Shown in pieces: positions 6,013-61,133 of a DNA stretch of 64,000 bases. The notes under the pieces are model-generated. The model did not search any database and was not told the origin of the DNA. It worked only from the letters and a program-made list of their open reading frames with translations. The translations under genes and the position numbers were made by a program. Each line of letters begins with the position of its first letter. Position 1 is the first letter of the stretch. Source of the DNA: Eledone cirrhosa (lineage: Eukaryota); the NCBI GenBank assembly GCA_964016885.1, contig OZ024741.1:140368001-140432000 (forward strand), in the 5' to 3' direction.

Positions 6013-6031
6013 GTTATTATTATTATTATTA

Positions 6032-9000
6032 TTTGCATTTATCTTGCTTTATGTTTATACGAGTTATCACCAAGTCACAACCAGTGACCTCAAGAGACAA
6101 CAAGGTCCGCCATGTTCAAGAAAGAACACACATATTCACACATGCATCCTTAGTGTTTAGACTTGTGATGTACTTATATTGACAGGATCTTCCTTAGTAT
6201 ATGGGCAGTTCCCATTAGTACTATCTTTTGTATTTCTCCTATACGCGGGTTTCCTGGGATTTGCGATAAGTAGTCGTTAGACCCCTTAGGTATCATTCCC
6301 AGAGCGCCTACAACCACTGGTATTGTTTTAGTTCTCAATTTCCACATTTTTCCAATTTCTATCTCCAGGTCCTTATACTTGCTCAATTTTTCAAATGTTT
6401 TTATAGATACATTCTTGTCTATTGGAACAGACATATCAATTAGCAGGCATACCCTCCTTTGAAAGTCCTTCAATATTATATCAGGTCTATTTGCATCTAT
6501 TTTTCGGTCTGTTTGGATGCTAAAGTTCCACAAGATTGAGATGTGATCTTTTTCAAGTATGGGAAGTGGTTGATGCTCCCACCAATTCTTTTGATGGGGC
6601 AGGTCAAAATGCTTACACATTATCCAATGTATGTATTGTGCAGCTCTGTCATGCCTGTTTAGGTATTCGGTTGGAGCTATAGGACTGCACATTGAAATTA
6701 TATGGTCAATGGTCTCTGGTTGTTTTTTGCATACACGGCATAATGGGCTGCACCCATTTTTTATTATGTTGGCTTGGTAATTTTTTGTTGGCAGACACTG
6801 ATCTTGTGCGGAGATAATCAGTCCTTCAGTCTCCGATTTCAGTCCAGAGGATGCCAACCACTGATGGGTTAAAGTTTTGTCAACATCAGGATTGTTAGCT
6901 CGCTCTGGGTATTTTCCATACAGAGGCTTTTCTTGCCATTTCTTAGCCAGTTTCTGTAGCAGTTCTTTCTTTGCAGTTACTTTTACCTGCTTTGCTTTTT
7001 CTGTGTTTTCCATTTCAGCAGTAAATGGGACTTCTGAAATTTGTAGTCCATTACTGTATCTTTGTGCATCTTTTGTAATGGAATATGATCTTTTGGTGCT
7101 TTCGTGTTTCAAAACGAGTTTGATCATCCAATCATGTGATTCCCTTAGATATGTGGATAATCCAATTGTTGCAGTTTTCAACGCAATGTCTAACTGGATT
7201 AACCCACGTCCTCCTTCTTTCCTAGGGAGATATATTCTATCTATGTCTGCCTTAGGGTGATGCATTCTGTGCATGGTTAAGAATTTTCGGATTTTTGTAT
7301 CGAGCCTACGGATCTCTGTGCTTGACCAGTTGATGACATTGTAACTGTAGGTTACTACTGGTATGGCAAGCGTGTTTATGGCATCGATCCTATTCCTTGC
7401 ATTCAATTCCGTTCTTAAGATTGCTCTGACTCTGCGGTAACATTCCTTCCTTATCCTTTCCCTCATTGTCGAGTGCTTGATTCCGTCTCCTTCACAAACA
7501 CCTAGATATTTGTAAGTTTGTTCTTGATCAAGCTCTCTTATCACGTTCCCCCGATCAAGATTAATGTCTGAACTCTTCAGCAGCTTTCCTCTGGTGAACG
7601 TTGCTTTGGCGCATTTATCCAGTCCAAACTCCATTTTAATGTCATCACTGAACTGCTTCACAGTGGATAATAGCCCTTGCAATTGTTCATCATTTTTTGC
7701 GAATAGTTTCAGGTCATCCATGTAGAACAGGTGATTAATGGTTTTGTCATAGACTCTATATCCATGTTTTGTTTCATTGAGCATTTTACTTAATGGTATA
7801 AGTGCGATGCAGAATAAAAGCGGTGATAAAGAGTCACCCTGAAAAATTCCACAATTAATGTTAACTTCTCCAGCTTCCAGTGATTTTGTTTCACTATTCA
7901 AAAGGAGTGTCGTTCTCCATGTCCTCATACTGAATGACAAAAACCTCCTGACAACGGGGGATATTTTGAAAATCTCTAAACATTTTTCAATCCAACTGTG
8001 TGGCAAACTATCAAATGCTTTTTTATAATCTATCCAAGCAATCGATAGATTTTTGTGCCTATTATGACAATCTTCCAGTATCATTTTGTTAACCAGAAGC
8101 TGATCCCTACAGCCATATGAGCCTCGTTTACACCCTTTCTGCTCAATGGGAAATAGGTCATTTGTTATCAGGTGGTCATATGTGTATTCAGTTAGGACTG
8201 ATGTTAAAATTTTATACATTGTGGTCAAGCAGGTTATCGGTCTGTAATTTTTGGGATTGTTTGTCTCATCATTCTTCGGTAGCAGGAATGTAATGCCGTT
8301 AACTAGCCATGATGGTATCTTTTCTGGCTCCTTAACTATTTCATTGTAAAGTTGGGCCAACAGCTCATGAGACTCTGTGAAGGCATTTATCCAAAAGTTT
8401 TGTATTTTGTCTTTTCCTGGGGATTTCCATTTGCTGGTTTTTCTTAGAGCCAAGCGCAGCTGTTCAACTGTTATATTTTCCCATGTTTGTTCTTCAAGGT
8501 GAGCTGTTTCTTTCATTTGTCTGTCTATCCATGGGGCATGTATGTTATGAACTTTTTCTTCGGCCCAGATCTTTTCCCAGAATTCTTGCACTTCCTCCTT
8601 GGGTGGTATTGATTTAGCAGTTATTGTTGACTTACCAATTTTTCTGTAGAAGTTTCTTTGGTTGTTTTTGAACATATTATTGTCCTTATAGAATCTAGAT
8701 CGTTTTTCAAAGCGCCTTATACGAGCAGCTTTGGCCGACACTTTTTGCTTGATTGTTTCTATCAGCATGTCTATGTCACATGTTGATCTTATACTGTACT
8801 TTTTTTTCAATTTTCTAAGTTTAGTTTGTTTAACATGTTCACCTACTTTATAGTTTGTTAAAATTTCTATGTCAGATCGGAGAAGGTTTATTTGGCGATT
8901 GATGTTATCTTGCCAAGTAGATTTCTTGTGGGAATTCCTTTGTTTTTTCATCTTCACTCCACATAAGTGAGTGGTGACTTTAGCCGATGCATAATAGAGA

Positions 9001-9995
9001 TGATTTAAGTCAGTAATGTTTATTTTGTTTGTGATGATAATGTTTTTGAGAATTATGTTAGTCTTGTGTATTATCTTTTGGTTCTGTTTGGAGTTCTGGA
9101 TCTTAGGGAGGGTGTCTCGTTCCCCCATGTCAGTTTCTTTCATTTTCATCCATTCGATCATAATTTCATCCTTCAAGTTGGCAAGTTCATTCTCATTCAT
9201 TTCTTTATCATTTACGATCTCATTATTTTCATTTGGAGTTTCATCCTGAGCATGCACTCCCTCCACTTTTTCGCTCCTTTCTTTAATTTGTTCTGTTGCC
9301 AGTGATTCCGCCCCAACTCTGGGATTCGAAGTGTTACAGTTTACCTCGTTTTCACTGACACGTGCTTCATTTTCCCTTCGCTGACTTTGTGCTACTAGCT
9401 TGATCTGATCAATTTCTATATCAGTTAGTAACTTTTTTCTTACAATATTTCTTCGTATATTGGCTAGTTTGTTACTGTCAATATAGCCTCTGTTTTCGGG
9501 ATGTTTCTTTTTCCAGTTGATATATGTTTGCTCTGTATTCGATGTATTTGATGGGTAGTACATGGCAGTATAGAAAGCCTCAAGGACTTCTTTATTATCT
9601 TCCCTTGACCATTTTTCTCTCTTTTTCTTTGGATTTCTTGGTGGTGAGCATGGAGGGCCAACAGTAGGAGTATTCCGGTTATGGGAGGTCTCCAGCTCCG
9701 AAGTGATGGGAAGGTTTGAACCATTAGCTGATTTTTCGACCCCAGTCTGGTTCCTCTCTGAGGGACGCGGCCCTTTTTTACCCGGGTGACGGCCGATCCG
9801 GTATGAGATTTCATCATTAGACATCTACTTTATTTTGTCGCGTTTTATCCTTATCCGCCAAGGGGTAATCTTTTCGTGTTACCACTTCTAGAACGAGTGT
9901 CAACCAAGACTAGAGGGGTCGTTCTCCCCTAGAGACATGGCTATTCCCCGCCGGCCGCCATCCCGGTATTTCTTGGTCACGGGGTTTTATTTTTG
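6032..9995 (-). mobile_element. R4/Dong-clade non-LTR retrotransposon, apparently full-length
   Basis: About 170-nt 5' UTR, single uninterrupted ORF, about 140-nt 3' UTR ending in (TAA)n at 6013-6031. The 5' boundary is approximate. Confidence 0.9.
6174..9824 (-). CDS. Intact RT / restriction-like endonuclease polyprotein (1216 aa)
   Basis: ATG start; N-terminal WSREDN..LEAFY motif; WKSPGKD, IDYKKAFD, GIFQGDSLSP, FYMDDLKL; CRVC..ETIDHIISMC; RHD; RPDII..LIDMSVP..EKLSKY. Confidence 0.95.
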   Translation of the reverse strand: MSNDEISYRIGRHPGKKGPRPSERNQTGVEKSANGSNLPITSELETSHNRNTPTVGPPCSPPRNPKKKREKWSREDNKEVLEAFYTAMYYPSNTSNTEQTYINWKKKHPENRGYIDSNKLANIRRNIVRKKLLTDIEIDQIKLVAQSQRRENEARVSENEVNCNTSNPRVGAESLATEQIKERSEKVEGVHAQDETPNENNEIVNDKEMNENELANLKDEIMIEWMKMKETDMGERDTLPKIQNSKQNQKIIHKTNIILKNIIITNKINITDLNHLYYASAKVTTHLCGVKMKKQRNSHKKSTWQDNINRQINLLRSDIEILTNYKVGEHVKQTKLRKLKKKYSIRSTCDIDMLIETIKQKVSAKAARIRRFEKRSRFYKDNNMFKNNQRNFYRKIGKSTITAKSIPPKEEVQEFWEKIWAEEKVHNIHAPWIDRQMKETAHLEEQTWENITVEQLRLALRKTSKWKSPGKDKIQNFWINAFTESHELLAQLYNEIVKEPEKIPSWLVNGITFLLPKNDETNNPKNYRPITCLTTMYKILTSVLTEYTYDHLITNDLFPIEQKGCKRGSYGCRDQLLVNKMILEDCHNRHKNLSIAWIDYKKAFDSLPHSWIEKCLEIFKISPVVRRFLSFSMRTWRTTLLLNSETKSLEAGEVNINCGIFQGDSLSPLLFCIALIPLSKMLNETKHGYRVYDKTINHLFYMDDLKLFAKNDEQLQGLLSTVKQFSDDIKMEFGLDKCAKATFTRGKLLKSSDINLDRGNVIRELDQEQTYKYLGVCEGDGIKHSTMRERIRKECYRRVRAILRTELNARNRIDAINTLAIPVVTYSYNVINWSSTEIRRLDTKIRKFLTMHRMHHPKADIDRIYLPRKEGGRGLIQLDIALKTATIGLSTYLRESHDWMIKLVLKHESTKRSYSITKDAQRYSNGLQISEVPFTAEMENTEKAKQVKVTAKKELLQKLAKKWQEKPLYGKYPERANNPDVDKTLTHQWLASSGLKSETEGLIISAQDQCLPTKNYQANIIKNGCSPLCRVCKKQPETIDHIISMCSPIAPTEYLNRHDRAAQYIHWIMCKHFDLPHQKNWWEHQPLPILEKDHISILWNFSIQTDRKIDANRPDIILKDFQRRVCLLIDMSVPIDKNVSIKTFEKLSKYKDLEIEIGKMWKLRTKTIPVVVGALGMIPKGSNDYLSQIPGNPRIGEIQKIVLMGTAHILRKILSI

Positions 9996-12089: not shown

Positions 12090-12304
12090 TTTTTCTTCCA
12101 TAACAAGTATATTTCTTCTTGCATTTCCTCATTCTCACCCTCTCCGTAAACCTATATATCGCTCCATATCCTCTTCTTCATTAAATTTAAGTTTATAATA
12201 TTATTATTTGTGGTATATAAATGTTGAGATTCGTTATAATAAATCACTGCCAATACTGTAATTGAATCATCAAGACAGTTGAGGTATGTCAACACCAATT
12301 CAAG

Positions 12305-12370
12305 TATTTTATCTGATGAGGACGTACTGAAATAACAGCACAGTACCTTCGAAATATATATAATAAAACA
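12305..12370 (+). ncRNA. Type I minimal hammerhead ribozyme
   Basis: ttttat-CTGATGA-ggacgtactg..cagtaccttc-GAAA-tatata-TA-ataaaa: stems I and II pair, stem III is palindromic, cleavage triplet AUA. Confidence 0.8.
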
Positions 12371-12511
12371 TATATTTTGATAATGTGAATGTCTTCATTT
12401 ATTAATATTTTGAATAATATTAATAACTCCAGAAAACTTCACTGTAGCGTGCTTATAATCTATTGTAAAACTATATTCATTGAGTATTCAATGAACCATA
12501 TTAATCTTTGG

Positions 12512-12607: not shown

Positions 12608-15600
12608 GTAGCTAAAAACCTGTCCCGGTAAATTTGCTATAGGTGAAAAAAAGTTGATCAAAATTGTATCTAGGGTTATTGCCCTTTGCAACAGGCCCAA
12701 CGTGTCTTCAAGTATGGTTTGTTAATTTGTTGTGGAACTAAATCGACTTCGTGAAATCGGACCGAGGAAACAAGGTTTCCACTTGTCTTTCTACCTGGTG
12801 TACCCGGTTACACTCGGGGTTATAAGGCGCTGGATTTAAACGGGTCTGCGGTAAATTCCAGCAGGATGCTTTAACCGAAATAAATGAAGAACACACGTTT
12901 CCTTTTGTGCTCCAATCTGTGATATTGGTATTTTGAAAAAATAGTCCACAAACATCCATGGAGCATGTGTAACGCATGTATCAGGTTATGAGAAAAAGGG
13001 TTTTCGATTCTCCATTCATAAGATACAAAAAAAAAATGCACACAAATAAACAGGGATTTTAAGGCACTGCCCTATTCATAGCTGAAAGGTAAGAGTCAAG
13101 TGGAATAATGTTTTGCGACATTGTCAAATGTACAACCGTACAAATGCAAAGGATATGGCCATTGAAATCTAGGTAGACCAAAGAATTTGGTGGGGTTGTA
13201 TATCAGAGGAGTGTTTTCCTTGTGATTCGCGTCTAGCCTACAAAGTGAAGTTTGATGATTGTAGTCGGTGTTGTATCAATAAAAAATAAAAGCATACGGA
13301 AGACTGAACACTTACAAATTAAATGAAAATCACGTTGATATTACTATCGAAGCAACATGTGCCGAAAAACCTGGCGGACTGTTGTGTCAATATTGAAATC
13401 GTAGAAAATGCGAATCTCGACCTCTAAGATGTAATGGATAGGCTTTGGAGGTGAAGGGGAAGAATTGGTACAATTGTTTTGCTGAACATGTTGAACATTA
13501 ATTTAAATAGACTTACGCAGCAGCATCGCGCGGTTTTGTTGTTTATGGCCTGGAATGAGGGCCGGTTAAACGCGGCAGAAAAATAAGCAATACTGATGAT
13601 GTTTAGGGGCGTCGCAGGGAATAGATGCGGCGTTGTGAGTCAATTGTGAGGACAGTGGAAGGCACACTGATCGCTTGAGAAGACGCGATGCTACACAGGA
13701 TACTTCTCAGCCATTATTGACAGAAAGGCATGTCAGGGGAAATGAAAGAGTTGCTATTCATCCTTTGCTTAGCATGGTGAACATGTAATTAAAAAGATTT
13801 ACTATGGACTATCGTACACGTTGGTATTGTGTTTAGCCTGCGAAAATCGGTGGTCAGATGGGGCAACAATAAGCCGTGCTGATGACGTTTAAGCGGGTGG
13901 CAAGTAATTGATGCGGCATAGATAGCCATGGGAGCCTTGAAGGAGGACGGCGGTCAGGCAAAAGAAAGGGCCGAGGACGGGATGGTGGCTGACAGTGCAT
14001 GGATGAGGCATCCTGAGGCATGACGATGCAGTGGGGCGACGGCCAGCAGGCAAGTAAGAGGGCAGGGGTGGTGGGTGGCAAGGATGCCGTATGGTGAGCC
14101 ATGGCAGTCTTGAAGGATCACTGGGGGCAGGCAAAAGAAAGGGCCGAGGAGGGGATGGTGGCTGACAGAGCATTGATGCGGCATGGTGATGTATGATGAT
14201 GCAGTGGGACGACGGCGTGCAGGGAACGGAGAGGGCAGTGGTTGACGGTGGCAGGGATGCGACTTGGTCCCGCAAGACCTCCATGCCTAGGCAGTGGAAA
14301 GGGTCGGGGAGTGGATGGCGGCTGGCAGGGCAGGGATGCAACATGATGAGGCATGACGAAAGGGCAGGGTGCATGGCGGCTGACAGGGCGTGGATGTGGC
14401 ATGCAAATTGAGTTGCACCTCGGGAATGTAGAGAGCACCGGGAGGCACGATGATTGTTTGAGGAAACTGGGTGCAAGGCAGGTTGTTTATCGGCCATACA
14501 TGATCGGTAAGCTTTGGAGGGGAAAGGGATGAATTTTTCTTTAATTTTGTTAAATATGGTAAATGAATGTAAAAAGACTTACACAGGATCGTCTTCATGT
14601 TCAGTGCTGTCTTTGGTCTGAGATAATGGGCGGTTATGTGCGGCGCAGGAATAAACCATGCTGATGACATATGAGCAAGTTGCTGACAGGGCAGGAATGC
14701 TGCATGGTGAGCCATGGCAGTCGTGAGGGACCAAGGCCTGCGGGAAAGGGAGGGGGGTAGGGGTTCACTGTGGCAGGGATGCGGCTTGGTTAGGCATGGC
14801 AGTCTTGAAGGAGCACGGCGGGCAGGCAAAATAAAAGGCTGAGGAGGGGATAGCGGCTGACAGATCATGGATGCGGAATGGTGAGGCATAACGATGCAGT
14901 GGGTCGACGGCGTGCAGGGAAGGGAGATGGCCGGGATTGACGGTTGCAGGGATTCCGCATGGTGAACCATGGCACTCGTGAAGGACCAAGGCGTGCGGGT
15001 AAGGAAGAGGGCAGGGGAGGGATGGTGGCTGACAGAGCATGAATTCGGCATGGTGAGGCCTGACGATGCAGTGGGACGATGGCGTGCAGGGAAGGGAGAT
15101 GGTAGGACTTGATGGTGGCAGGGATTCGGCTTGGTTAGGCATGGCAGTCTTGAAGGAGCATGGCGGGCAGGGAAAAGAAAGGGTTGGGGAGGGGATGGTG
15201 GCCGACAGGGCAGTAATGCGGCATGGTAAGGGATGACGATGCAGTGGGACGACGGCGTGCAGGGAAGGAGAGGGCAACGGGTTGACGGTGGCAGGGATGC
15301 CGCTTAGTCAGGCATGGAAGTCTTGAGCTTTCCCGGAGTGTAGGCAATGGAAATGGGCAGGGGTAGACGGTGGCAGGGATTCGGCATGTTGAGCCGTGGC
15401 AGTCCTTAGGGACAACGGAGGGCAGGAAATGGAAAGGGCTTGGGAATGAATTGCGGCTGACAAGGCAGAGATGCGCATGGTGATGCACAACGATGAAGTG
15501 TGTCGACGGCTTGCAGGGAAGGGAGAGGGCAGGGGTTGACGGATGTCATTATGCCACGGTAATGGGACCACGGGAATGAAGAGAACGCATGTAGGCTCGA

Positions 15601-16110
15601 TGATCGCTTGAGAAGACTTGGCGCAATACAGGATGATGTGCCGCGGTATAGTCTTGATAGTCCTTATATAAGAAATGGAAGAAACGGCATAAAAGGTTTG
15701 CTGAATATGGTGAGCGTTAATTTAAAGAGACATACGGTGGATAATCCTGATAGATTGAACGTCTTTTGCATGGCGGGAGTCGCGACAAATGGAAGTTTTC
15801 GGTTGCTGGATTTTTTCCTCTGGGGGTCCGAATATCGATTATCCGAATATGTAATGTAGCCCATGTTCATCCCCGGATCAAAATACACACTTGCGTCGAG
15901 TTTCATCGAAATCGGACGAATGTTAAAAATATACTTTTTGGCGTCTGATTACCGATTTTCTTAAAATTTCAAGAAGTCTATTCCAATCTACGGGGTGAGT
16001 TTTATATTTGTGTCAAGTTTCATGAATATCGGATGAATAGTGTGGCCTGCAAGCTCGGGACACTAAACAAACAAACAAACAAACAACGCCTAACCACTTT
16101 ATATATAATA
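12608..16110 (-). mobile_element. Non-autonomous Helitron/Helentron-like element carrying a GC-rich tandem array
   Basis: Minus-strand 5' end TATATATAAAAGTGG..(GTTT)n at about 16065-16110 resembles the other Helitron 5' ends in this window; a degenerate 3' end (..ttttagCTAC-T) lies near 12608. Boundaries are inferred. Confidence 0.5.
13900..15545. repeat. GC-rich diverged tandem repeat, ~172-bp unit with ~85-bp sub-periodicity, in two blocks
   Basis: GAYGATGCAGTGGG-like motif recurs at about 14022, 14195, 14890, 15062 and 15235; the array is interrupted by an AT-rich spacer at about 14400-14680. Confidence 0.85.
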
Positions 16111-16164
16111 TATATATATATTTATATATATATATATATATCTTGATTAGTATGTTTAATAATA

Positions 16165-16340
16165 ATAATTATTTCTACATTAGGCCAGCAATTACCCAGT
16201 GTACTACTGGTACTTTATTTTATCGACCCCGTAAGGATGAAAGGCAAAGTTAACCTCGGCGAGATTTGAACTCAGAATGGCAAGGGCCGTAACTCTATGC
16301 GTCAAACATGGCGTCCGAACCTCTACCGATACTGCCAATA
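16165..16340 (-). mobile_element. tRNA-derived SINE (family A)
   Basis: Homologous to 55119-55310; B-box GTTCAAATC on the minus strand. Confidence 0.9.
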
Positions 16341-18630: not shown

Positions 18631-19467
18631 TAAATAATATAAAAGATGTCCGTCAATGTAAAAAAAGGTCCCTATTTACTCCCTTCACAACTCTGTGTAT
18701 GTTAGACTGACAGACAGGCACACAGACAGATAAACTGCGTGGCGATTGTGGGATGCCGCACGTACACACACGCACGTAATACAAACGCACCCGTGCACTT
18801 ACACACACGCACACAGTCACTTATGTTGATAGTTTTTACTTTCTGTGGAACGCTGCACGCACGCACACACCCATAAACGTACATACACACGCACGTACAT
18901 ACCCACGCACATATGTTAATAGTTATTGCTTTCCTTACCCTCTTATTTCCACACACGTCACACACACACATGTCTCTACACTGACACATATACATAGTGT
19001 ATCCAAACAGCATTCACTTTGCCTCTCTCTCCCCTCTCACTCCCTCATTGGCATTATGCATATTAATGTATGCTTGGCGTTGTTGAAGTGGGCGGACGTT
19101 TGAAACCTATGAACCAATGATAATCGAGAATTATGACACGCGGAATACTGACATTGTTGAAATTAATATATAGATAATTTGTATGATAAATTATATGTAA
19201 TTTCGCTAAATTAATAATGTTCTGTAAATATTTTCAATGTTTAGATGAAAATATTGGAATCTACAAATTGTTCTCTTATAATTTGAACTACGTCTTTTTC
19301 TTAAATATATATTTAAAAGGTAAAATCAACATCCATCGCAATTCATATTAGAAATTCAAACAAATTAATACGTGTGTTTTATATGTATATAATCACCAAT
19401 AATATTTATATTTATACACTTATTAATTTATATAGATATTTATATACTTACAACCTGTTGTAATATA

Positions 19468-19562
19468 ATTGTTTCTACTTTTGGCACAAGGCCAGCAATT
19501 AACCAATGCATTACTGGTACTTTATTCTATCGACCCCGGAAGGATGAAAGGCAAAGTTAACC
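19468..19562 (-). mobile_element. SINE family A, 5'-truncated
   Basis: Core and tail only; flanked by direct repeat aacctgttgtaatataat (19452 and 19559). Confidence 0.88.
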
Positions 19563-19991
19563 TGTTGTAATATAATAAGATAAAATGTTCTTACAACCAT
19601 AATTCTTCATATAATCTAAATGATTATATAAATAATATTATAATTCATAATGTAGCTAAATATTTTTTAAATTCTGGCATCATATTCCACCATTCCAACA
19701 AACGTTTAATTCTTAACGTTTCATTCTTTATAGTAATATAAATACAAGCTTTTCTTTCTTTCTTCTTCCTATACATACATATACAGGTCCTAATAATTAT
19801 TTCAATCTACCTAGCGTCTAAAAATAATGTTTCGTCAGCCCTACACCTTAACCTCATTTGCATATTCATCTTAATAATTTGAAATATTTGTTTTTTTCAT
19901 CTCTACCCCCTTTTCCTTTTACTATCCAGGTAAAACTTGAATCGTTAAGGTCTCATTCCTGGATATGTCAATATTTATAAAACAAACTTTG

Positions 19992-20052
19992 TATTTTATC
20001 TGATGAGGGCGTACCAAAGTGTTGGTACCCTTGAAATATATATAATAGAATA
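19992..20052 (+). ncRNA. Type I minimal hammerhead ribozyme
   Basis: tattttat-CTGATGA-gggcgtacca..tggtaccctt-GAAA-tatata-TA-atagaata; same family as 12305 and 20897. Confidence 0.8.
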
Positions 20053-20176
20053 AATATGGTTTTATAAAGATAGTTTTCCATTTATTAATATCAGTGATAT
20101 ATATATATATATATATACATAAAATAATTAAGTCAAATATGTAAAATATGGCTTCGTTTATTATAAATTAAAAATT

Positions 20177-20233: not shown

Positions 20234-20526
20234 CCGAATTGGTGTGGAAAAGACAGGTACAGATGTTGTTGAAGTATGTTTTTCTCCGTCAATACATCGA
20301 TATGTCCAATTCCTGGTTGTGTTGGTATTCCTCAGAGGAACTAGAAACATATGATTCCAGCAGTAATTTTTAATTTATAATAAACGAAGCCGTATTTTAC
20401 ATTACTCCGGAGTAAACAAACCAGCCGGCATACATCTGCATACTGAGGTATCGGTAAGCAACCAACATATACTCAAAATATATATATATACACAAATTAA
20501 ATATAACTCAAAATATATATATATAC

Positions 20527-20586
20527 ACAAATTAAATATAACCTCTGCGTATATATATATATACGCAGAGGTTATATTTAATTTGT
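20527..20586. repeat. 60-bp perfect palindrome centred on (TA)n
   Basis: acaaattaaatataacctctgcg-(TA)n-cgcagaggttatatttaatttgt. Confidence 0.9.
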
Positions 20587-20697
20587 TGGGATTCACAAGC
20601 TTAAAAATTGTTATAACTGATATAAAGTGCTCAACAGTTTACTGGAGTAAATATTCAATATATTAATAAATGGAAACTATATTTATAAAACCATAAT

Positions 20698-20764
20698 TGT
20701 TTTATTATATATATTTCACGGGCAACCAAGGCAAATTTTGGTGCGCTTACATCAGATAAAATAC
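20698..20764 (-). ncRNA. Hammerhead ribozyme with mutated core (CTGATGT)
   Basis: Mirror copy of 20897-20962 with A9 changed to T. Confidence 0.65.
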
Positions 20765-20896
20765 AAATTTGTTTTATAAATAAATATTGACATACCCGCA
20801 TAAAGACAACCTTAAGGGTTGTGGTTCGCTATGAGCCTCAACCGTTAAGATTGTCTTTATGCGGGTATGTCAATATTTATTTATAAAACAAATTTG

Positions 20897-20962
20897 TATT
20901 TTATCTGATGAAAGCGCACCAAAATATTCCGTGGTTGCCCTTGAAATATATATAATAAAATA
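20897..20962 (+). ncRNA. Type I minimal hammerhead ribozyme
   Basis: tattttat-CTGATGA-aagcgcacca..tggttgccctt-GAAA-tatata-TA-ataaaata; 8-bp stem I. Confidence 0.78.
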
Positions 20963-21000
20963 ATTATGGTTTTATAAATATAGTTTCCATTTATTAATAT

Positions 21001-21058
<58 letters not shown>

Positions 21059-22884: not shown

Positions 22885-23040
22885 ATATATATAGAGAGAA
22901 ATAACAATATATCCAGAGAAAACAGTATATTGTATATATATATACTAAATACATATTACAGAGAGCAATATGTATTTAGTATATATACAATACTAGACTG
23001 TTTTCTCTGGATATATGGTAATTTCTCTCTATATATATAT
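22885..23040. repeat. Imperfect inverted repeat (~70-bp arms)
   Basis: agagagaaat..atatccagagaaaacagt..tactaaatacatatt pairs with aatatgtatttagta..actgttttctctggatat..atttctctct. Confidence 0.8.
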
Positions 23041-23051
23041 ACATATATAAT

Positions 23052-23240
23052 ATTTGTTTCTACTTTAGGCACAAGGCCAGCAATTACCCAGTGCATTACT
23101 GGTACTTTATTTTATCGACCCCGTAAGGATGAAAGGCAAAGTCAACCTCGGCGGGATTTGAACTCAGATCGTAAAGGGACGTAACTATGCTGGAAAGCAT
23201 GGCGTCCGACCCTCTACCGATATTGCCAACCCACCGCCCT
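23052..23240 (-). mobile_element. SINE family A, full-length
   Basis: A/B boxes on the minus strand; flanking duplication atatacatatataata. Confidence 0.93.
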
Positions 23241-34308: not shown

Positions 34309-34945
34309 ATAAATGTAACAGTTGTTGATACCGATGTTGTTTTCTATATATTCAGGCGCTTAAAACGATGTGTAATGATTGACTTGTCTAATGATTATTT
34401 CATGAGATTTGCCTTCAGAGTGTTTCATTACCTTCTCCAACCCAAATGTGACAATTCTTTAATTATGTATTGCTTTTTAAAGCTTTGAACATTAAACCGC
34501 AGCTATACACATTATCTATTTACTATCTAGGTTGGTTGAACTCTGAACACCTGTCTTTGCTGATTCATCACACTGATTTTGTAGGAAACATATTTCATGC
34601 ACATCTTTGTAATCTACATGAGTATCGTTTTATTTGCCTGTAAAACTTTAGCATAACATATATAAAATCCAGTTTGTTGACAGAACATTTAGTAGTGCAT
34701 AGATCATTGTGAGAATTTGAGATTTTCGAGTAAATACTTTAGTATCTGTTTTGTTCGTCTCAAAAATCTCATGCGGGCGTGGAAACATGCGAGTATTTCT
34801 CGCTTGCAAGAAACTGCTTCTACGCCTATCTTAATATGAAAGGCAAATGTGCGACAAAAATTCATTGTTGAGAAGGGTATTATCAAAACAAATACATAAA
34901 TCGTATTATATAGGAAAGAAAGGTTGGCAAATGTGATAGAGATAT

Positions 34946-35063
34946 AATTGTTTCTACTTTTGGCAGAAGGCCAGCAATTACCCAGTGTATTACTGGTACT
35001 TTATTTTATCGACCCCGTAAGGATGAAAGGCAAAGTTAACCTCGGCGGGATTTGAACTCAGAT
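34946..35063 (-). mobile_element. SINE family A, 5'-truncated
   Basis: Tail, core and B-box are present. Confidence 0.88.
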
Positions 35064-38364: not shown

Positions 38365-38853
<489 letters not shown>

Positions 38854-40548
38854 CTTAGCTACTGGTGTGGCCATCTCCATATTATATGGTGTGTTATACC
38901 ATATAATGCGTCGGGATCTATTTTTCCTAGGTCTATTCTCGTACTCTGTATATGCTACATTATCAACAAATCCACCCCGAGCAAGAGCTTCATTGTAATA
39001 TGTGGAATAGTCGTTGAAAATATCCTCGTTTGTAGATAGTCGGGAAAGCCTCAAAGAAACGTTTCTTACCAGGTTCTTGGTCATGCTGGCAGGATGGTTA
39101 GAATGCTTACTTATGTAATTAAGCGTATCATTCGGCTTTCTATACGGGTAGTGCAAGCCATTCGATAAATTGAGGGTAACGTCGAGCTAATTAACGACCG
39201 AGAGGTTGGCCTCAACCTGTATATAGAGGTTGAAGCCTTTAAAGAAGGCTTTGAGTCCTTTTCTGAACCAGTCGCAATCACGTGGGCCGCACATTGTCAT
39301 GGTCAAAAGACCGTCATCACGGTACAAACCACCGCCCACGTTGGGGAATTCTTCCTTGATAGAGAAAAGAAGGAAAATGCCGATAAGATCAGTAACCTCC
39401 GCAGAATCGTTGGCGCCCATACTCACGTCGAACGGAGTACTATTTGTTAATCCAAATAGAGTCGTCGAAATTAATCACCGACTTACGGGCATTGAGGATG
39501 ACGTCAACTTCGAAATCCTTAACCACTGTGAATGTTTTAGCGAAATTGATAGCTCTAAGAAGAAGTAGTAAAGTGATGGAGGAGTTGTAATTATAGATGT
39601 CGAATTGGATAAAACGGCAATGTTCTTTGTTGCATATGCCGTTGAACCAATCAATCACGCGAAAGAATTGTTCCAGAGTACAAGAGGGGCCAAGCTTCTA
39701 ATTTCAGGTATAATTCCATCTAAAATCCTTTTACTAAGTTTACCTAAATCGGACTTCGTAGGGTTAATAACCTGAATAGAGGGGTTGTTGGGGAAATTGG
39801 ATTTGTGATCCTTCAGGGTAAAGTGGGGAGAAATAGGGTCCTGGATGTTGCGATCAGAGGTGATTTTAAAGCCAGCGTCGTTGATCTCATTAATGAGGCT
39901 CCGATTAGTTTTACGGTAATCCTTAGTTGCAGCATTATGTAGCAGTTCATGGTAAGTACTGCGTTCCACTTGATATAGATTGCCAGAGTAGGCGGAGTGG
40001 ACGTGCACGGCATTAGAATCCTTAATAGAACGAATTCTATTCTTCAGGTCCGGCTGGAAGGAATTTCTCCTATTCCGAAATTTGATATTCCGTATGAGTT
40101 CTAAGACATCATTTTCGATGGGTAGCAATGCTGGGTTACTCCGAGGGTTATTATAGGTTTTAAACCCGAATTTATCCTGTTTGATGTCTGCTTTTCCCTG
40201 ATTATCGAAATAAAAGGCACACCAACGCAACCTTTTAATGAGCACGTCTGTTTTCTGTATCAGGAGTGTTAGGTATGTTTTCCTGCTTGGTACGGGTATG
40301 TTCTTTGTAGAAATATTCAGTTGTTGTTTCTGCATGATGAATATAAGTCAGGCTCCACATAATGACGTATTATCTTCGTTTTTTCCGTTCATAGCCAGAA
40401 AACGTCTCCATGAACCACCTAATAGAATATTAGTCTACGATTTCATTTATACCATAAACTTGGTTTTGTTTTTGCGTGTAATTGTTTTGTAATTCTTTGC
40501 TTAAACTTTAATCTGTTATTTTAATATATATATATATATATATATATA

Positions 40549-43177: not shown

Positions 43178-43180
43178 TAT

Positions 43181-43396
43181 CCGAATGTGGGTGACTACTC
43201 CATTCAATGGAAAGCCATCACTTAGTCCAACCCATACGCAAGGGGCAATCCGTCGTGTGGACTATGTATTGATGAATGATTAAATATTCTAAAGAAATTA
43301 CGCAATAGTGATTGCCTAAACACGAGACATGATTTCTTCACACGTTGTCCACACGCCCAGAAATACCTCTTACATGACTACAAAGCTCCGGATTGA
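43181..43396 (+). pseudogene. C-terminus of a Penelope-like (Naiad-type) GIY-YIG endonuclease
   Basis: Manual translation [50 protein letters not shown] fits the pattern Y.I.W..Y..C.LC..EK..LN.R.E..C.H..K..L. Confidence 0.75.
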
Positions 43397-43811
43397 ATTA
43401 CAACAACATCCTAATTTTCTTATCAACTAGAAACTTTCGGATTTTCTCAGTTATCTCCCTTACACCTCTCGAACGCAATTTAGTATTGCCTCTGTGAAAC
43501 GATCGTTTCTGCGCATGCGCGTTCGTACGGTGATCCTTCCTGTTCCGTAAAACCATGTCCATTACGAGTTGAGGTGAAACAATTGTTCTTGGTATGGTGA
43601 ACTAACTGGCAGCGATAATGAGAGACAGAGACCGCTGGAGAGAACTCGTCCATGGATCTCGGGAATTTTACCCGCCTTAGATATATATATATATATGTAT
43701 AGACATTTCGTATCTCCAAATAACTACGGTGTTAGGAAGCCGTAGCTATGCAAAATCCGGGGGGGGGGCGGCTAATGCCCTCTGGTGATGTCCAGCAGAA
43801 GCAAGGAAGAC

Positions 43812-43857
43812 AACCGTCTATGCATTGCAGGATTAACTGGCCTTCGTCAGGACGATC
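43812..43857 (-). ncRNA. Minimal hammerhead, GAAA changed to GCAA
   Basis: gatcgtc-CTGACGA-aggc-cagttaa-tcct-GCAA-tgca-TA-gacggtt. Confidence 0.7.
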
Positions 43858-44048
43858 CCTCCCACCACTTGCGACCGCTGGTCTAGAAGACAGCCGAGTT
43901 GAAGCGAAATCTTATTTCTTTTTTATTATAAGTTGAGCCAACTTATGCAGCTTCATATGCAAATGAGATTAATCACCTCATTTACACAGACGAGAAAAGT
44001 ATATATTCTCGGCTGTCTTCTAGTCTAGCAGTCGCAAGCGGTGGGAGG

Positions 44049-44094
44049 GATCGTCCTGAGGAAGGCCAGTTAAGCCTGAAATGCATAGTCGGTT
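44049..44094 (+). ncRNA. Minimal hammerhead, intact core
   Basis: gatcgtc-CTGAGGA-aggc-cagttaa-gcct-GAAA-tgca-TA-gtcggtt; palindromic stem III ATGCAT; one stem I mismatch. Confidence 0.82.
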
Positions 44095-44289
44095 GGCCCC
44101 TTCGCTTCTGCTGGACATCACCAGAGGGCTCTAGCCCCCCATAATAAGATTTCGCTTCAAGCAGAGCTTTATACAATATGTATAGAAATTTCGTATCTCC
44201 AAAGAAATACGGTTTTAGAAATACGTAACAATGCAAACACCCTGGGGGGCTAGAGCCCTCTGGTGATGTCGAGCAGAAGCGAAGGGGCC

Positions 44290-44335
44290 AACCGTCTATG
44301 CATTTCAGGCTTAACTGGCTTTTGTCAGGACGATC
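44290..44335 (-). ncRNA. Minimal hammerhead, core CTGACAA (G8 mutated)
   Basis: gatcgtc-CTGACAA-aagc-cagttaa-gcct-GAAA-tgca-TA-gacggtt. Confidence 0.7.
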
Positions 44336-44526
44336 CCTCCCACCGCTTGCGACTGCTAGACTAGAAGACAGCCGAGAATATATACTTTTCTCGTCTGTGT
44401 AAATGAGGTGATTAATCTCATTTGCATATGAAGCTGCATAAATTGGCTCAACTTATAATAGAAAAGAAATAAGATTTCGCTTCAACTCGGCTGTCTTCTA
44501 GACCAGCGGTCGCAAGTGGTGGGAGG

Positions 44527-44572
44527 GATCGTCCTGACGAAGGCCAGTTAATCCTGCAATGCATAGACGGTT
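44527..44572 (+). ncRNA. Minimal hammerhead, GAAA changed to GCAA
   Basis: Identical to the 43812 copy in the opposite orientation. Confidence 0.7.
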
Positions 44573-44719
44573 GTCTTCCTTGCTTCTGCTGGACATCACC
44601 AGAGGGCTCTATCCCCCAGGGTGTTTGCATTGTTACGGCTTTCTAAAACCGTATTCCTTTGGAGATACGACATTTCTATACATATTGTCTAAAGCTCTGC
44701 TTGAAGCGAAATCTTATTT

Positions 44720-44804
<85 letters not shown>

Positions 44805-55118: not shown

Positions 55119-55308
55119 AGGGCGGTGGATTGGCAGTATCGGTAGAGGGTCGGACGCCATGCTTTCCAGCATAGTTACGTCCCTTTACGATCTGAGTTCA
55201 AATCCCGCCGAGGTTGACTTTGCCTTTCATCCTTACGGGGTCGATAAAATAAAGTACCAGTAATGCACTGGTTAATTGCTGGCCTCGTGCCTAAATTAGA
55301 AACAATTA
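55119..55308 (+). mobile_element. SINE family A, full-length reference copy
   Basis: A-box TGGCAGTATCGG, B-box GTTCAAATCC, central gcctttcatcct..ggtcgataaaat.agtaccag (Nin-domain-like); TSD attatcagtgttaaaa. Confidence 0.95.
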
Positions 55309-55818
55309 TCAGTGTTAAAAGGAATATTTTTGCATGTATATTATTCTTCATTTTAGAGAAAGAGGCGGTTTCTGGCAAGCTTAGATTGAATACATATCGC
55401 ATATTTTCTGAAATGCTTGAGCATCCCGGCATCTGTGTTTAGTCGAGTGAAGGCAATATAATTCAATTACAAAGAATGGCTATAATTTTAGTACGGTTCT
55501 ACAATCATCCTGGAAATTCAAAATATAATTATCAGTGGTTTGATATAATACACCCAATCTGATCATGAATCAACAGTGAATCTTCTTTTGTATGTTTTAC
55601 ACATATACAAATAAAGACTTAAACATATCACATACGAGAATAAATATATAAACCGTGTGTTCTCTATATAAGAAATACATGCATGATGCGCTTCTCTAAT
55701 CTTTTTACAAATCAATTAAAACGCGAAGATTTTTCATATTTCGATGCGTTTACGGATTTTGCTTATTAAACATCAACAGTTTGTGTCCTAACAATCGTGT
55801 GTATATGAAATATATATG

Positions 55819-56649: not shown

Positions 56650-57229
56650 TGTGTGTGTGTAATCATCACCTTCCTTCTGTTGTCGGTGTTGTATCAGGTT
56701 GGCGAAATCAAATAGACAGAAACATATGCCCATCTTTACCCCATGCATACAAACTATGACTAGTCAATCCTTTGGACAATTTACTCGAAATATTCAGCTT
56801 AATGTTTTTGAATGTTTTTTACCGACTGCGGTTTCAATCCTTTTTCTGGGTGAAATTCCAATAAATTAGGAATTTGTCAGGTCCTTTATTAAGTATATAA
56901 TCTTTACATTTTACAATACAAATTTGGGCAATGGATGCTTCTGAATCATTTCCCTAGCTTACTTTCTCTTTAGTTATGCCATTTACTTGGTTTAAATTAT
57001 GCGAAGCAATTACCCAATATCTCGGTATAAATGGATAGTTCTGAACAATCGGATAAATACTACTATGGTGACGAAAACAATAGTTCACAACACATGTGTA
57101 TAATTGCCCTTTGTCTTCAAAAACGATAAGCATATAAATTTACTTAGTTCATTTTTACCTCCTGAAATTATCACTTATTTTATAGAATTGCAAATAATAG
57201 TTTCAGTTCACGAAGAATTCAGTAAATAT

Positions 57230-57428
57230 AATTGTTTCTTCTTTTGGCAGAAGGCCAGCAATATCTCAGTGTATTATTGGTGCTTTAATTTATCAACCCC
57301 GTAAGGATGAAAGGCAAAGTTAACCTCGGCGGGATTTTAACTCAGACCATAAAGGTCCGTAGTCCGTAACTATTTGCTGCAAAGCATGGCGTCCGACCCT
57401 CTGCCGATACTGCCAATCAAACGCCCTC
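57230..57428 (-). mobile_element. SINE family A, full-length
   Basis: TSD ttcagtaaatataat. Confidence 0.92.
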
Positions 57429-59896: not shown

Positions 59897-59978
59897 CATC
59901 CTTACGAGGTCGATAAAATAAAGTACCAGTAATGCACTGGTGAATTGATGGCCTTGTGCCTAAATTAGAAACAATTAT
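59897..59978 (+). mobile_element. SINE family A 3' half
   Basis: catccttacgaggtcgataaaat..gccttgtgcctaaattagaaacaatt. Confidence 0.88.
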
Positions 59979-60074
59979 AATATACACGATGACGTCATTC
60001 TTCACTTCGAAATTAAATGACCTAAACCCGTATATATAAAACATTTAAGCAATTACACACACACGCGCGCACAT

Positions 60075-60884: not shown

Positions 60885-60941
<57 letters not shown>

Positions 60942-60945
60942 AAAT

Positions 60946-61133
60946 AATGATTTCTTCTTTTGGCACAAGTCCAGAAATTACCCTGCGCATTACTAGTACT
61001 TTATTTTAACGACCTCGTAATGATGAAAGGCAAAGTTAACCTCGGCGGGATTTGAACTCAGAATGGCAAGGGTCGTAACTCTATGCGTCAAAGCATGGCG
61101 TTCGATCCTCTACCCATACTGCCAATCCACCGC
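60946..61133 (-). mobile_element. SINE family A, full-length
   Basis: Homologous to 16165-16340 (same aatggcaaggg subtype). Confidence 0.92.

What the first reader, a model, noticed from the sequence alone, without database searches (positions are those of the whole stretch)
43690..44720. Palindrome of palindromes carrying four hammerhead ribozymes in -,+,-,+ polarity
Seen: a non-coding ~1-kb insert between (TA)n tracts, built from one unit repeated four times in alternating orientation. Each unit has a 46-nt type I hammerhead with a 7-bp stem I and palindromic stem III (ATGCAT). The outer copies share one set of variants (GCAA, tcct) and the inner copies another (GAAA, gcct), so an older inverted pair was itself duplicated by inversion. 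Each strand therefore has two ribozymes 478 nt apart. Established: minimal hammerheads with palindromic stem III occur in Penelope pseudo-LTRs and non-LTR retrozymes and cleave as dimers. Inference: before the core mutations, either strand could release a ~478-nt largely self-complementary RNA, an ambisense retrozyme-like or viroid-like unit. Only the 44049 copy keeps an intact core.
Basis: partly seen in the sequence, partly recalled or inferred. Interest (0 to 1): 0.82.

Follow-up and report, generated by a model that had tools for sequence, protein, structure and literature searches.

The report
Decayed retrozyme pair, locally re-duplicated
This 1-kb mirror-within-a-mirror is a decayed back-to-back pair of an abundant 325-base ribozyme-carrying repeat that was likely partly copied once more, upside down, into itself, so it is most likely an ordinary genomic scar and not a two-stranded viroid-like replicon.

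Summary
The four alternating hammerheads are real, and only the 44049 copy has an intact core. The ambisense 478-nt reading is not supported. Laid reads show an abundant family with a 325-nt head-to-tail monomer (joint in 4 of 4 runs), an intact core in most copies, and two recurrent 3' ends 39 nt apart, the Penelope-type optional tail. The insert's two outer ends are those two ends. Arm 4 is a chimera: it follows arm 1 at 11 of 11 informative sites, then arm 3 at 12 of 14, switching within 26 identical bases. One later local inverted copy (about 465 nt) put into an ordinary 555-nt head-to-head pair explains the layout. Every same-strand pair includes the GCAA-broken ribozyme, likely broken before the copy was made. 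Each hammerhead follows its own antisense; folding it costs a predicted 56-89 kcal/mol. No listed read or contig bridges the locus-specific junctions, so an assembly error is not excluded. Two-armed retrozyme insertions were already noted by this scan in this genome (other families); head-to-head Penelope insertions are published. Verdict: new, dead member of a known kind.

The parts
43681..43692 (.). short (TA)n tract at the left boundary, directly after the 3' end of another high-copy repeat
   Evidence: sequence; depth of the left flank
43693..43898 (-). Arm 1 (old arm P1): 5'-truncated unit, core A1 plus 3' part B, ending at the family's short (tail-less) 3' end
   Evidence: 13 X1 contigs leave the family at the equivalent place (44176) into TA-rich letters
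43812..43857 (-). hammerhead copy, broken core (GCAA), stem II closing mismatch
   Evidence: family majority has A here (row 43827)
43899..44141 (+). Arm 2 (first part of old arm P2): spacer C plus core A2, head-to-head with arm 1
44049..44094 (+). only hammerhead with intact core; 6 of 7 stem I pairs; predicted cut after 44087
44130..44141 (+). left copy of a >=12-nt direct repeat flanking the later insert (right copy 44608-44618, one substitution and one deleted base)
44142..44607 (-). inferred later inverted copy (about 440-466 nt) of 43772-44141 joined to B and most of the tail; left junction is non-homologous with one extra T
   Evidence: chimera analysis; inference
44143..44485 (-). Arm 3: one full 325-nt monomer plus 18-nt terminal redundancy, ending 6 nt short of the long 3' end
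44290..44335 (-). hammerhead copy, G8 changed to A and stem II mismatch, both private to this copy
   Evidence: (rows 44323, 44320)
44486..44724 (+). Arm 4: chimera of core A1 (identical to arm 1) and B plus tail (rest of old arm P2)
44527..44572 (+). hammerhead copy, broken core (GCAA), identical to the 43857 copy
   Evidence: (row 44557)
44582..44607 (+). 26-nt stretch identical in both old arms; the arm-1 to arm-3 switch lies within it
44686..44724 (+). 39-nt optional 3' tail; its last 24 nt repeat the start of C
   Evidence: tail concept from PMC8557442 and PMC3846280
44725..44800 (.). (TC)n(TA)n microsatellite at the right boundary

Best explanation
The insert is a decayed head-to-head pair of an abundant 325-nt hammerhead repeat (a likely non-LTR retrozyme, likely moved by a Penelope-like enzyme), into which about 465 nt of itself were likely copied once more, inverted, by a local DNA template switch. 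Step 1 (shown for the family): the unit is head-to-tail, 325 nt, with one hammerhead and no reading frame seen; most copies have an intact core. Step 2 (inferred from published homologues): its RNA would be cut by dimeric hammerheads and copied into AT-rich microsatellite DNA by a Penelope-like RT/endonuclease in trans; the two ends of the break are extended from two start points 39 nt apart, leaving a 555-nt pair with a tail-less left end and a tailed right end. Step 3 (inferred): both arms decayed; arm 1 lost GAAA. Step 4 (structure shown, mechanism inferred): a break near the end of core A2 was repaired by switching, through 26 identical bases, onto the inverted arm 1, copying across the pair to the tail end beside the microsatellite, and rejoining without homology at 44141/44143. 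The locus is most likely inert; any read-through RNA is predicted to be a long hairpin with buried ribozymes.
For: Monomer: joint 44467->44143 'goes back 325' in 4 of 4 runs (1 contig X1, 1 contig X4, 7 reads X6, 5 reads X7); loose ends behind 44485 continue as B-type letters (17 contigs, 63 and 151 reads); the same contiguity appears. Two ends: 13 X1 contigs leave at 44176 into TA; 24 contigs, 336 and 311 reads leave at 44143 with the 6 letters that complete the tail; distance 39 nt, within the 30-40-nt tail of PMC8557442 (passages) and close to the 31-bp one-sided tail of PMC3846280 (passages). Chimera: arm 4 follows arm 1 at 11 of 11 sites up to 44581, then arm 3 at 12 of 14 from 44608. Two divergence tiers: duplicated parts differ at 13 of 464 sites; old arms at 13 of 122 and 16 of 78. 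Internal control: an unrelated hammerhead family forms a plain head-to-head pair at 20648-21012 with an extension on one arm only. One homologous plus one non-homologous junction is the pattern of inverted-repeat template switches (PMC11293582, passages). Folding.
Against: No listed contig or read bridges 44141/44143 or 44485/44486 (most pieces were not shown), so the layout rests on the assembly. The A1 copies differ at 0 of 122 against 13 of 342 in the other duplicated parts (Fisher p=0.025; four-part homogeneity p=0.06), which may mean later conversion. Arm 4 follows arm 1 at 2 of 14 sites after the switch (best read as private changes in arm 3; majority rows 44222/44223 agree). The non-homologous junction lies only 6 nt from the family's long end and the insert is flanked by a >=12-nt repeat, which also fits reverse transcription. 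The old arms differ more in B (20%) than in A (11%; p=0.065). No autonomous partner and no RNA were found; 241 loose-end rows were not shown, so ORF-linked copies are not excluded. The RAD read counts may come from few loci.
Confidence: 0.6

Rival explanations
1. Same two-arm origin, but the extra inverted copy is a cDNA: a read-through RNA of this locus was reverse-transcribed from near the tail start and inserted back into its own locus, with a >=12-nt target duplication and a 5' join by annealing to 26 identical bases.
For: The junction is 6 nt from the family's long 3' end; >=12-nt flanking repeat; the anole Penelope protein cuts its own pLTR region, extends both strands and starts internally at two sites (PMC11167929, parts 1-2 of 4); 8-10-bp TSDs and microhomology 5' joins occur in rotifer Penelope (PMC3846280 passages).
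Against: The target (C-run followed by G-run) is GC-rich, whereas the family's ends and the published enzyme favour AT-rich DNA; the end lacks the 6 letters that the listed family ends carry; the template must be this very locus, which a DNA event gives for free; the adjacent microsatellite could equally stall DNA synthesis.
Confidence: 0.2
2. The locus is a simple two-arm pair and the two extra arms are an assembly or library artefact (fold-back or joined haplotypes).
For: No listed piece bridges the inner junctions; depth over 44490-44530 is 0 in X4, X6, X7 and 124-152 in X1; best runs hold only 0.50-0.52 of the words; such structures are known to trouble assemblies (PMC8557442).
Against: The duplicated parts differ by 13 substitutions and one 1-nt gap spread over both copies, unlike a fold-back of one molecule; the mirror stops inside the element and flanks are not mirrored; short contigs and RAD reads are not expected to cover one locus of a high-copy family.
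Confidence: 0.12
3. The arms are 5'-truncated pseudo-LTR stubs of a coding Penelope-like element, not copies of a stand-alone retrozyme; the head-to-tail joints come from partial tandems. (Concerns family identity; compatible with either duplication mechanism.)
For: Tail, head-to-head layout and microsatellite targets are described for coding PLEs; retrozymes derive from pLTRs (bioRxiv 10.64898/2026.07.22.740005, parts 1-3 of 5).
Against: The listed loose ends upstream of C are B-type in X1, X6 and X7, which closes the unit at 325 nt; no long ORF lies in the unit; the one 156-aa stop-to-stop frame has no Pfam match.
Confidence: 0.15
4. One reading: a unit able to release a ~478-nt self-complementary RNA from either strand, an ambisense retrozyme or viroid-like element.
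For: Two hammerheads per strand 478 nt apart; the 478-nt piece folds with 74% of bases paired; in a precursor trimmed to just the two hammerheads the cost of the fold falls to 6-16 kcal/mol. Later conversion could have spread GCAA to both outer arms.
Against: Every same-strand pair holds a GCAA core; the family unit is 325 nt; inner junctions are not family features; in full or nascent transcripts the hammerhead fold costs 56-89 kcal/mol; unlike viroids, the two polarities are mirror copies of one motif, not separate motifs in one circle.
Confidence: 0.03

Closest known systems
Metazoan non-LTR retrozymes (Cervera and de la Pena 2020, PMC7229834, passages; Li, Clavereau and Pollet 2026, bioRxiv 10.64898/2026.07.22.740005, parts 1-3 of 5)
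   Same: Non-coding unit of 325 nt (published range about 170-400), head-to-tail, one type I hammerhead per unit; helix III is one pair plus a palindromic tetraloop as in axolotl HHR_Amex1; many copies.
   Different: This locus is not a tandem: it holds inverted, truncated arms with three broken cores. Expression, cleavage and circles were not seen. The passages read do not describe tails or head-to-head pairs for retrozymes.
Head-to-head inverted pLTR insertions of endonuclease-positive Penelope-like elements with a one-sided 30-40-nt tail (PMC8557442 passages and section 11; PMC3846280 passages; PMC11167929 parts 1-2)
   Same: Inverted 5'-truncated copy at the 5' end, tail on one arm only (39 nt), microsatellite target, hammerhead in the repeat; opposite-strand hammerheads 100-700 bp apart were already noted in Schistosoma (PMC4209133, parts 1-2 of 4).
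   Different: No RT/GIY-YIG ORF attached; clade of the partner unknown; four arms instead of two.
Inverted-repeat-driven template-switch rearrangements (DUP-TRP/INV-DUP; PMC11293582, passages)
   Same: One junction inside a stretch of full identity between inverted repeats, the second non-homologous; an inverted copy inserted in place.
   Different: About a thousand times smaller; copy number two nearly throughout (only the 12-38-nt overlap is tripled); 26 nt of identity instead of kilobases.
Viroids and viroid-like RNAs with ribozymes in both polarities (search listings only)
   Same: Ribozyme motifs on both strands; highly paired RNA.
   Different: Genomic, single-locus, mirror copies of one motif, cores broken, no circle or RNA replication seen.

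Membership tests
non-LTR retrozyme | type I hammerhead with intact core in the unit | tested here: met
   44049 copy; family majority letters restore G8, stem II and GAAA. Not matched by Rfam models.
non-LTR retrozyme | head-to-tail monomer of about 170-400 nt | tested here: met
   325-nt joint in 4 of 4 runs; met for the family, not by this locus
non-LTR retrozyme | non-coding, no LTR/PBS/PPT | tested here: inconclusive
   no Pfam match for the only long frame; listed loose ends show no ORF, 241 rows not shown; PBS/PPT not searched
non-LTR retrozyme | at least two consecutive same-strand units with complete hammerheads (active copy, Li 2026) | tested here: not met
   every same-strand pair at this locus has a broken core; the locus is a dead derivative
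non-LTR retrozyme | expressed as linear and circular RNA, self-cleaving | not testable with these tools
   no RNA holder listed
EN+ Penelope-like insertion pattern | inverted 5'-truncated copy at the 5' end (head-to-head) | tested here: met
   junction 43898/43899
EN+ Penelope-like insertion pattern | optional 30-40-nt tail on one end | tested here: met
   39 nt; both ends recur in other copies
EN+ Penelope-like insertion pattern | AT-rich or microsatellite target | tested here: met
   outer flanks; loose ends into TA; the later inner insert is in GC-rich sequence
autonomous Penelope-like element | RT plus GIY-YIG ORF between pLTRs | tested here: not met
   none at the locus; partner not found
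viroid-like ambisense RNA | working ribozymes that release a unit from both polarities | tested here: not met
   three of four cores broken; folds predicted buried
viroid-like ambisense RNA | same unit recurs as a circular RNA or in many copies | tested here: inconclusive
   inner junctions not seen as family features in 4 runs; no RNA data; no genome held

The most novel reading that the evidence does not exclude
The Penelope-type machinery copies a read-through RNA of an already palindromic retrozyme insertion back into the same locus, starting at the tail and finishing by annealing to the sister arm, so palindromes of palindromes are a second-order product of retrotransposition in cis and record the enzyme's start site and a >=12-nt staggered cut.
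Probability: 0.2. Interest if true: 0.55.

Novelty: new member of a known kind. Interest (0 to 1): 0.22.

Why it matters
The locus itself is likely inert. Its value is modest: it adds one more 325-nt retrozyme-like family whose ends carry the Penelope tail and head-to-head signature, in line with the proposal that Penelope enzymes move animal retrozymes (mechanism called unresolved in Li et al. 2026). It also shows that both-strand hammerheads in animal DNA can arise from insertion geometry plus one local rearrangement and should not be read as viroid-like without a recurrence and folding check. If the extra copy proved to be reverse-transcribed in cis, it would give a direct footprint of how these enzymes start and finish.

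Tried and rejected
No genome is held, so no genome-wide census or copy number was possible; summed contig depths are not copy numbers. Rfam: 0 matches at gathering score; at E<=10 only hairpin-type chance matches such as MIR7723, far below gathering. Exact motif scans found 0 loci in metagenome contigs, viral contigs and genome contigs, so no autonomous partner was found. Supplement file of PMC8557442: no match to a 12-nt loop II motif; 2 matches to an 8-nt motif in unrelated context. Sequencing runs: no RNA holder listed; X4 had a small share (0.05) and an unrecorded library, so it is used only as a second DNA-like witness of the 325-nt joint. The 156-aa frame 43982-44452 (-) has no Pfam match and is rejected as a gene. 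The 21-aa left-flank peptide has no NCBIfam match; its RTE-like look is recalled, not tested. 'Simple inverted duplication of the right-hand pair' was rejected (0 of 122 vs 16 of 78, p=1e-7). 'Two independent two-arm insertions' was rejected: both carry the same inner junction and share rare variants over 375 nt. 'Both arms copied from one composite RNA' was rejected because their 3' parts differ by 20%. Earlier-finding look-ups by sequence, near place and words for a four-arm layout returned nothing. Paper searches listed no report of a four-arm retrozyme layout or of this family; the library lacks most subscription papers, and the bioRxiv supplements of Li et al. could not be seen.

Full report
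OBSERVATION. The region 43693-44724 holds four arms of one repeat unit in -,+,-,+ order. I call the unit's parts C (109 nt), A (122-132 nt, with the hammerhead) and B (about 110 nt); B ends with the 18-24 nt with which C starts (family D7). Arm 1 (43693-43898, -) is A plus a short B. Arm 2 (43899-44141, +) is C plus A. Arm 3 (44143-44485, -) is C, A, B. Arm 4 (44486-44724, +) is A, B, followed by (TC)n(TA)n. Each A has a 46-nt type I hammerhead: 7-bp stem I, CUGAnGA, 4-bp stem II with a 7-nt loop, GAAA, one pair plus a palindromic tetraloop, and an AUA site. By the definition in PMC4209133 (parts 1-2 of 4 read) this is the canonical dimer-acting metazoan form, not the minimal motif without helix III; it resembles axolotl HHR_Amex1 (PMC7229834, passages). 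Only the 44049 copy has an intact core, and it has a T-T mismatch in stem I. Descriptor scans gave 0 hits in 20 of 20 and 10 of 10 shuffles; neither descriptor returned the 44049 or 44335 copy. Rfam did not recognise the motif. The window is animal DNA rich in LINE ORFs and microsatellites; that it looks cephalopod-like is my recall, untested.

THE FAMILY. No genome is held. Seven runs of one organism were listed and all seven were laid. The unit is abundant: 2,506 X1 contigs and 866 and 929 RAD reads fall on 431 nt. A head-to-tail joint of 325 nt occurs in 4 of 4 runs, and the listed loose ends upstream of C are B-type (17 contigs, 63 and 151 reads). The natural unit is therefore a closed 325-nt monomer with the ribozyme on one strand. 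Majority letters give an intact core: at 43827, 99% of X1 depth and 130 of 130 X5 reads have the A of GAAA; at 44557, 97% and 9 of 9; at 44323 and 44320, 99%. Two 3' ends recur: a short one (13 X1 contigs leave at 44176 into TA-rich letters) and a long one (24 contigs, 336 and 311 reads; the RAD reads may come from few loci). They are 39 nt apart. Arm 1 stops at the short end and arm 4 at the long end. This is the one-sided 30-40-bp tail of endonuclease-positive Penelope-like elements, which also form head-to-head inverted copies and favour microsatellites (PMC8557442 passages and section 11; PMC3846280 passages); the anole enzyme starts at two sites that bound the tail and extends both strands (PMC11167929, parts 1-2 of 4). 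In one search, 241 loose-end rows and 2,579 pieces were not shown.

HOW FOUR ARMS AROSE. A plain inverted duplication predicts that arms 1 and 4 are alike throughout. They differ at 0 of 122 sites in A but at 16 of 78 in B (p=1e-7). Where arms 1 and 3 differ, arm 4 follows arm 1 at 11 of 11 sites up to 44581 and arm 3 at 12 of 14 from 44608; the switch lies in 26 bases identical in both old arms. Removing about 44142-44618 leaves an ordinary 555-nt head-to-head pair, tail-less on the left and tailed on the right. One later event put an inverted copy of that pair's middle and right part at the A/B boundary of the right arm. Its left junction (44141, one T, 44143) has no homology; its right junction is homologous; a repeat of at least 12 nt flanks it. 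Duplicated parts differ at 13 of 464 sites, the old arms at 11-20%, so two events of different age are indicated, although copying from the homologous chromosome would blur this clock. One homologous and one non-homologous junction at inverted repeats is the pattern of template-switch rearrangements (PMC11293582, passages), here in miniature. I favour a DNA event (0.6) because the template had to be this locus and the target is GC-rich. Reverse transcription in cis (0.2) stays open because the junction lies 6 nt from the long end and a target-like repeat is present. An unrelated hammerhead family in the same window forms a plain head-to-head pair at 20648-21012 with an extension on one arm only, so step one is common here.

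THE AMBISENSE IDEA. Each strand has one A1 and one A2 ribozyme. A1 carries GCAA, rare in the family and shared by both outer arms, so it likely predates the four-arm layout; then neither strand ever had two intact cores. The caveat is that 0 of 122 is lower than the 13 of 342 elsewhere (p=0.025), so later conversion is possible; my rough estimate is 10-15% that both cores were intact at the time. Independently, on either strand each hammerhead is transcribed after its own antisense. ViennaRNA gives stem I probabilities below 1e-35 and a cost of 56-89 kcal/mol in whole or nascent transcripts, against 1.8 and 3.8 kcal/mol for single arms. Against my reading: in a precursor trimmed to the two hammerheads the cost is only 6-16 kcal/mol, and the 478-nt piece is 74% paired. 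The inner junctions are not family features: molecules break off at 44140, 44143 and 44485, and depth over 44490-44530 is zero in three of four runs. Two X1 contigs show other inversions ending at 44485, a hint that this 5' breakpoint recurs.

IS IT REAL? No listed piece bridges the locus-specific junctions, which short contigs and RAD reads of a high-copy family would rarely do. The duplicated parts carry 13 substitutions and one 1-nt gap on both copies, and the mirror ends inside the element, unlike a fold-back read. I leave 0.12 for an artefact.

COMPARISON AND NOVELTY. The family works like an animal non-LTR retrozyme and meets the two structural tests I could run; expression and cleavage are untested, and this locus fails the 'active copy' test of Li et al. 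2026 (parts 1-3 of 5 read). Its insertion pattern is the published Penelope pattern; opposite-strand hammerheads 100-700 bp apart were noted in 2014. Earlier notes of this scan report two-armed retrozyme insertions of other, younger families in this genome and head-to-head pairs in other genomes; these are unchecked AI notes, seen after I had formed the two-end and chimera model. My paper searches listed no four-arm case and no description of this family. Verdict: a new, dead member of a known kind with a one-off local rearrangement; interest 0.22.

Noticed in passing
window 20648-21012; also 19961-20121 and 12304-12420: A second, unrelated hammerhead family (stem III ATATATAT): a 365-nt head-to-head palindrome, 92% self-complementary, one arm ending at (TA)n and the other running about 45 nt further; a solo copy and a diverged relative lie nearby.
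   Followed up: partly
window 20492-20586 and 20139-20182/20359-20402: A perfect 60-nt palindrome around (TA)n with a short direct repeat beside it, and a 44-nt inverted repeat flanking about 175 nt, next to the second hammerhead family.
   Followed up: no
window 38776-40347 (-): Broken Penelope-type RT frame with an N-terminal KNIP motif, Naiad-like by recall; no Pfam match.
   Followed up: partly
window 23859 (+) and 42889 (+): Further hammerhead-core-like strings (CTGATGA, short stem, GAAA) that failed my descriptors.
   Followed up: no
window 43180-43680: The left flank is itself high-copy repeat DNA; loose ends at 43607/43608 point to a deletion or a join of two elements; 43608-43680 has the highest depth and reads like a LINE 3' end by recall.
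   Followed up: partly
window 309-2924 (+), 3314-6013 (-), 6174-9824 (-): Three long non-LTR retrotransposon frames with RVT_1 (and zf-RVT) matches; the 1216-aa frame is uninterrupted.
   Followed up: partly
window 16106-16339, 19400-19563, 23030-23237, 34944-35062, 55122-55309, 57225-57424, 59897-59984, 60889-61133: Eight copies of a SINE-like repeat of about 200-240 nt.
   Followed up: no
window 13895-15545: Tandem array with a period of about 170 nt, 66-79% identity between units, GC-rich.
   Followed up: no
window 43693-43776 (-) versus 44176-44254 (-): The B region folds into different hairpins in the two old arms (10-bp stem in arm 1; an alternative 12-bp stem in arm 3), suggesting subfamilies or two different RNA templates for the two arms.
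   Followed up: partly
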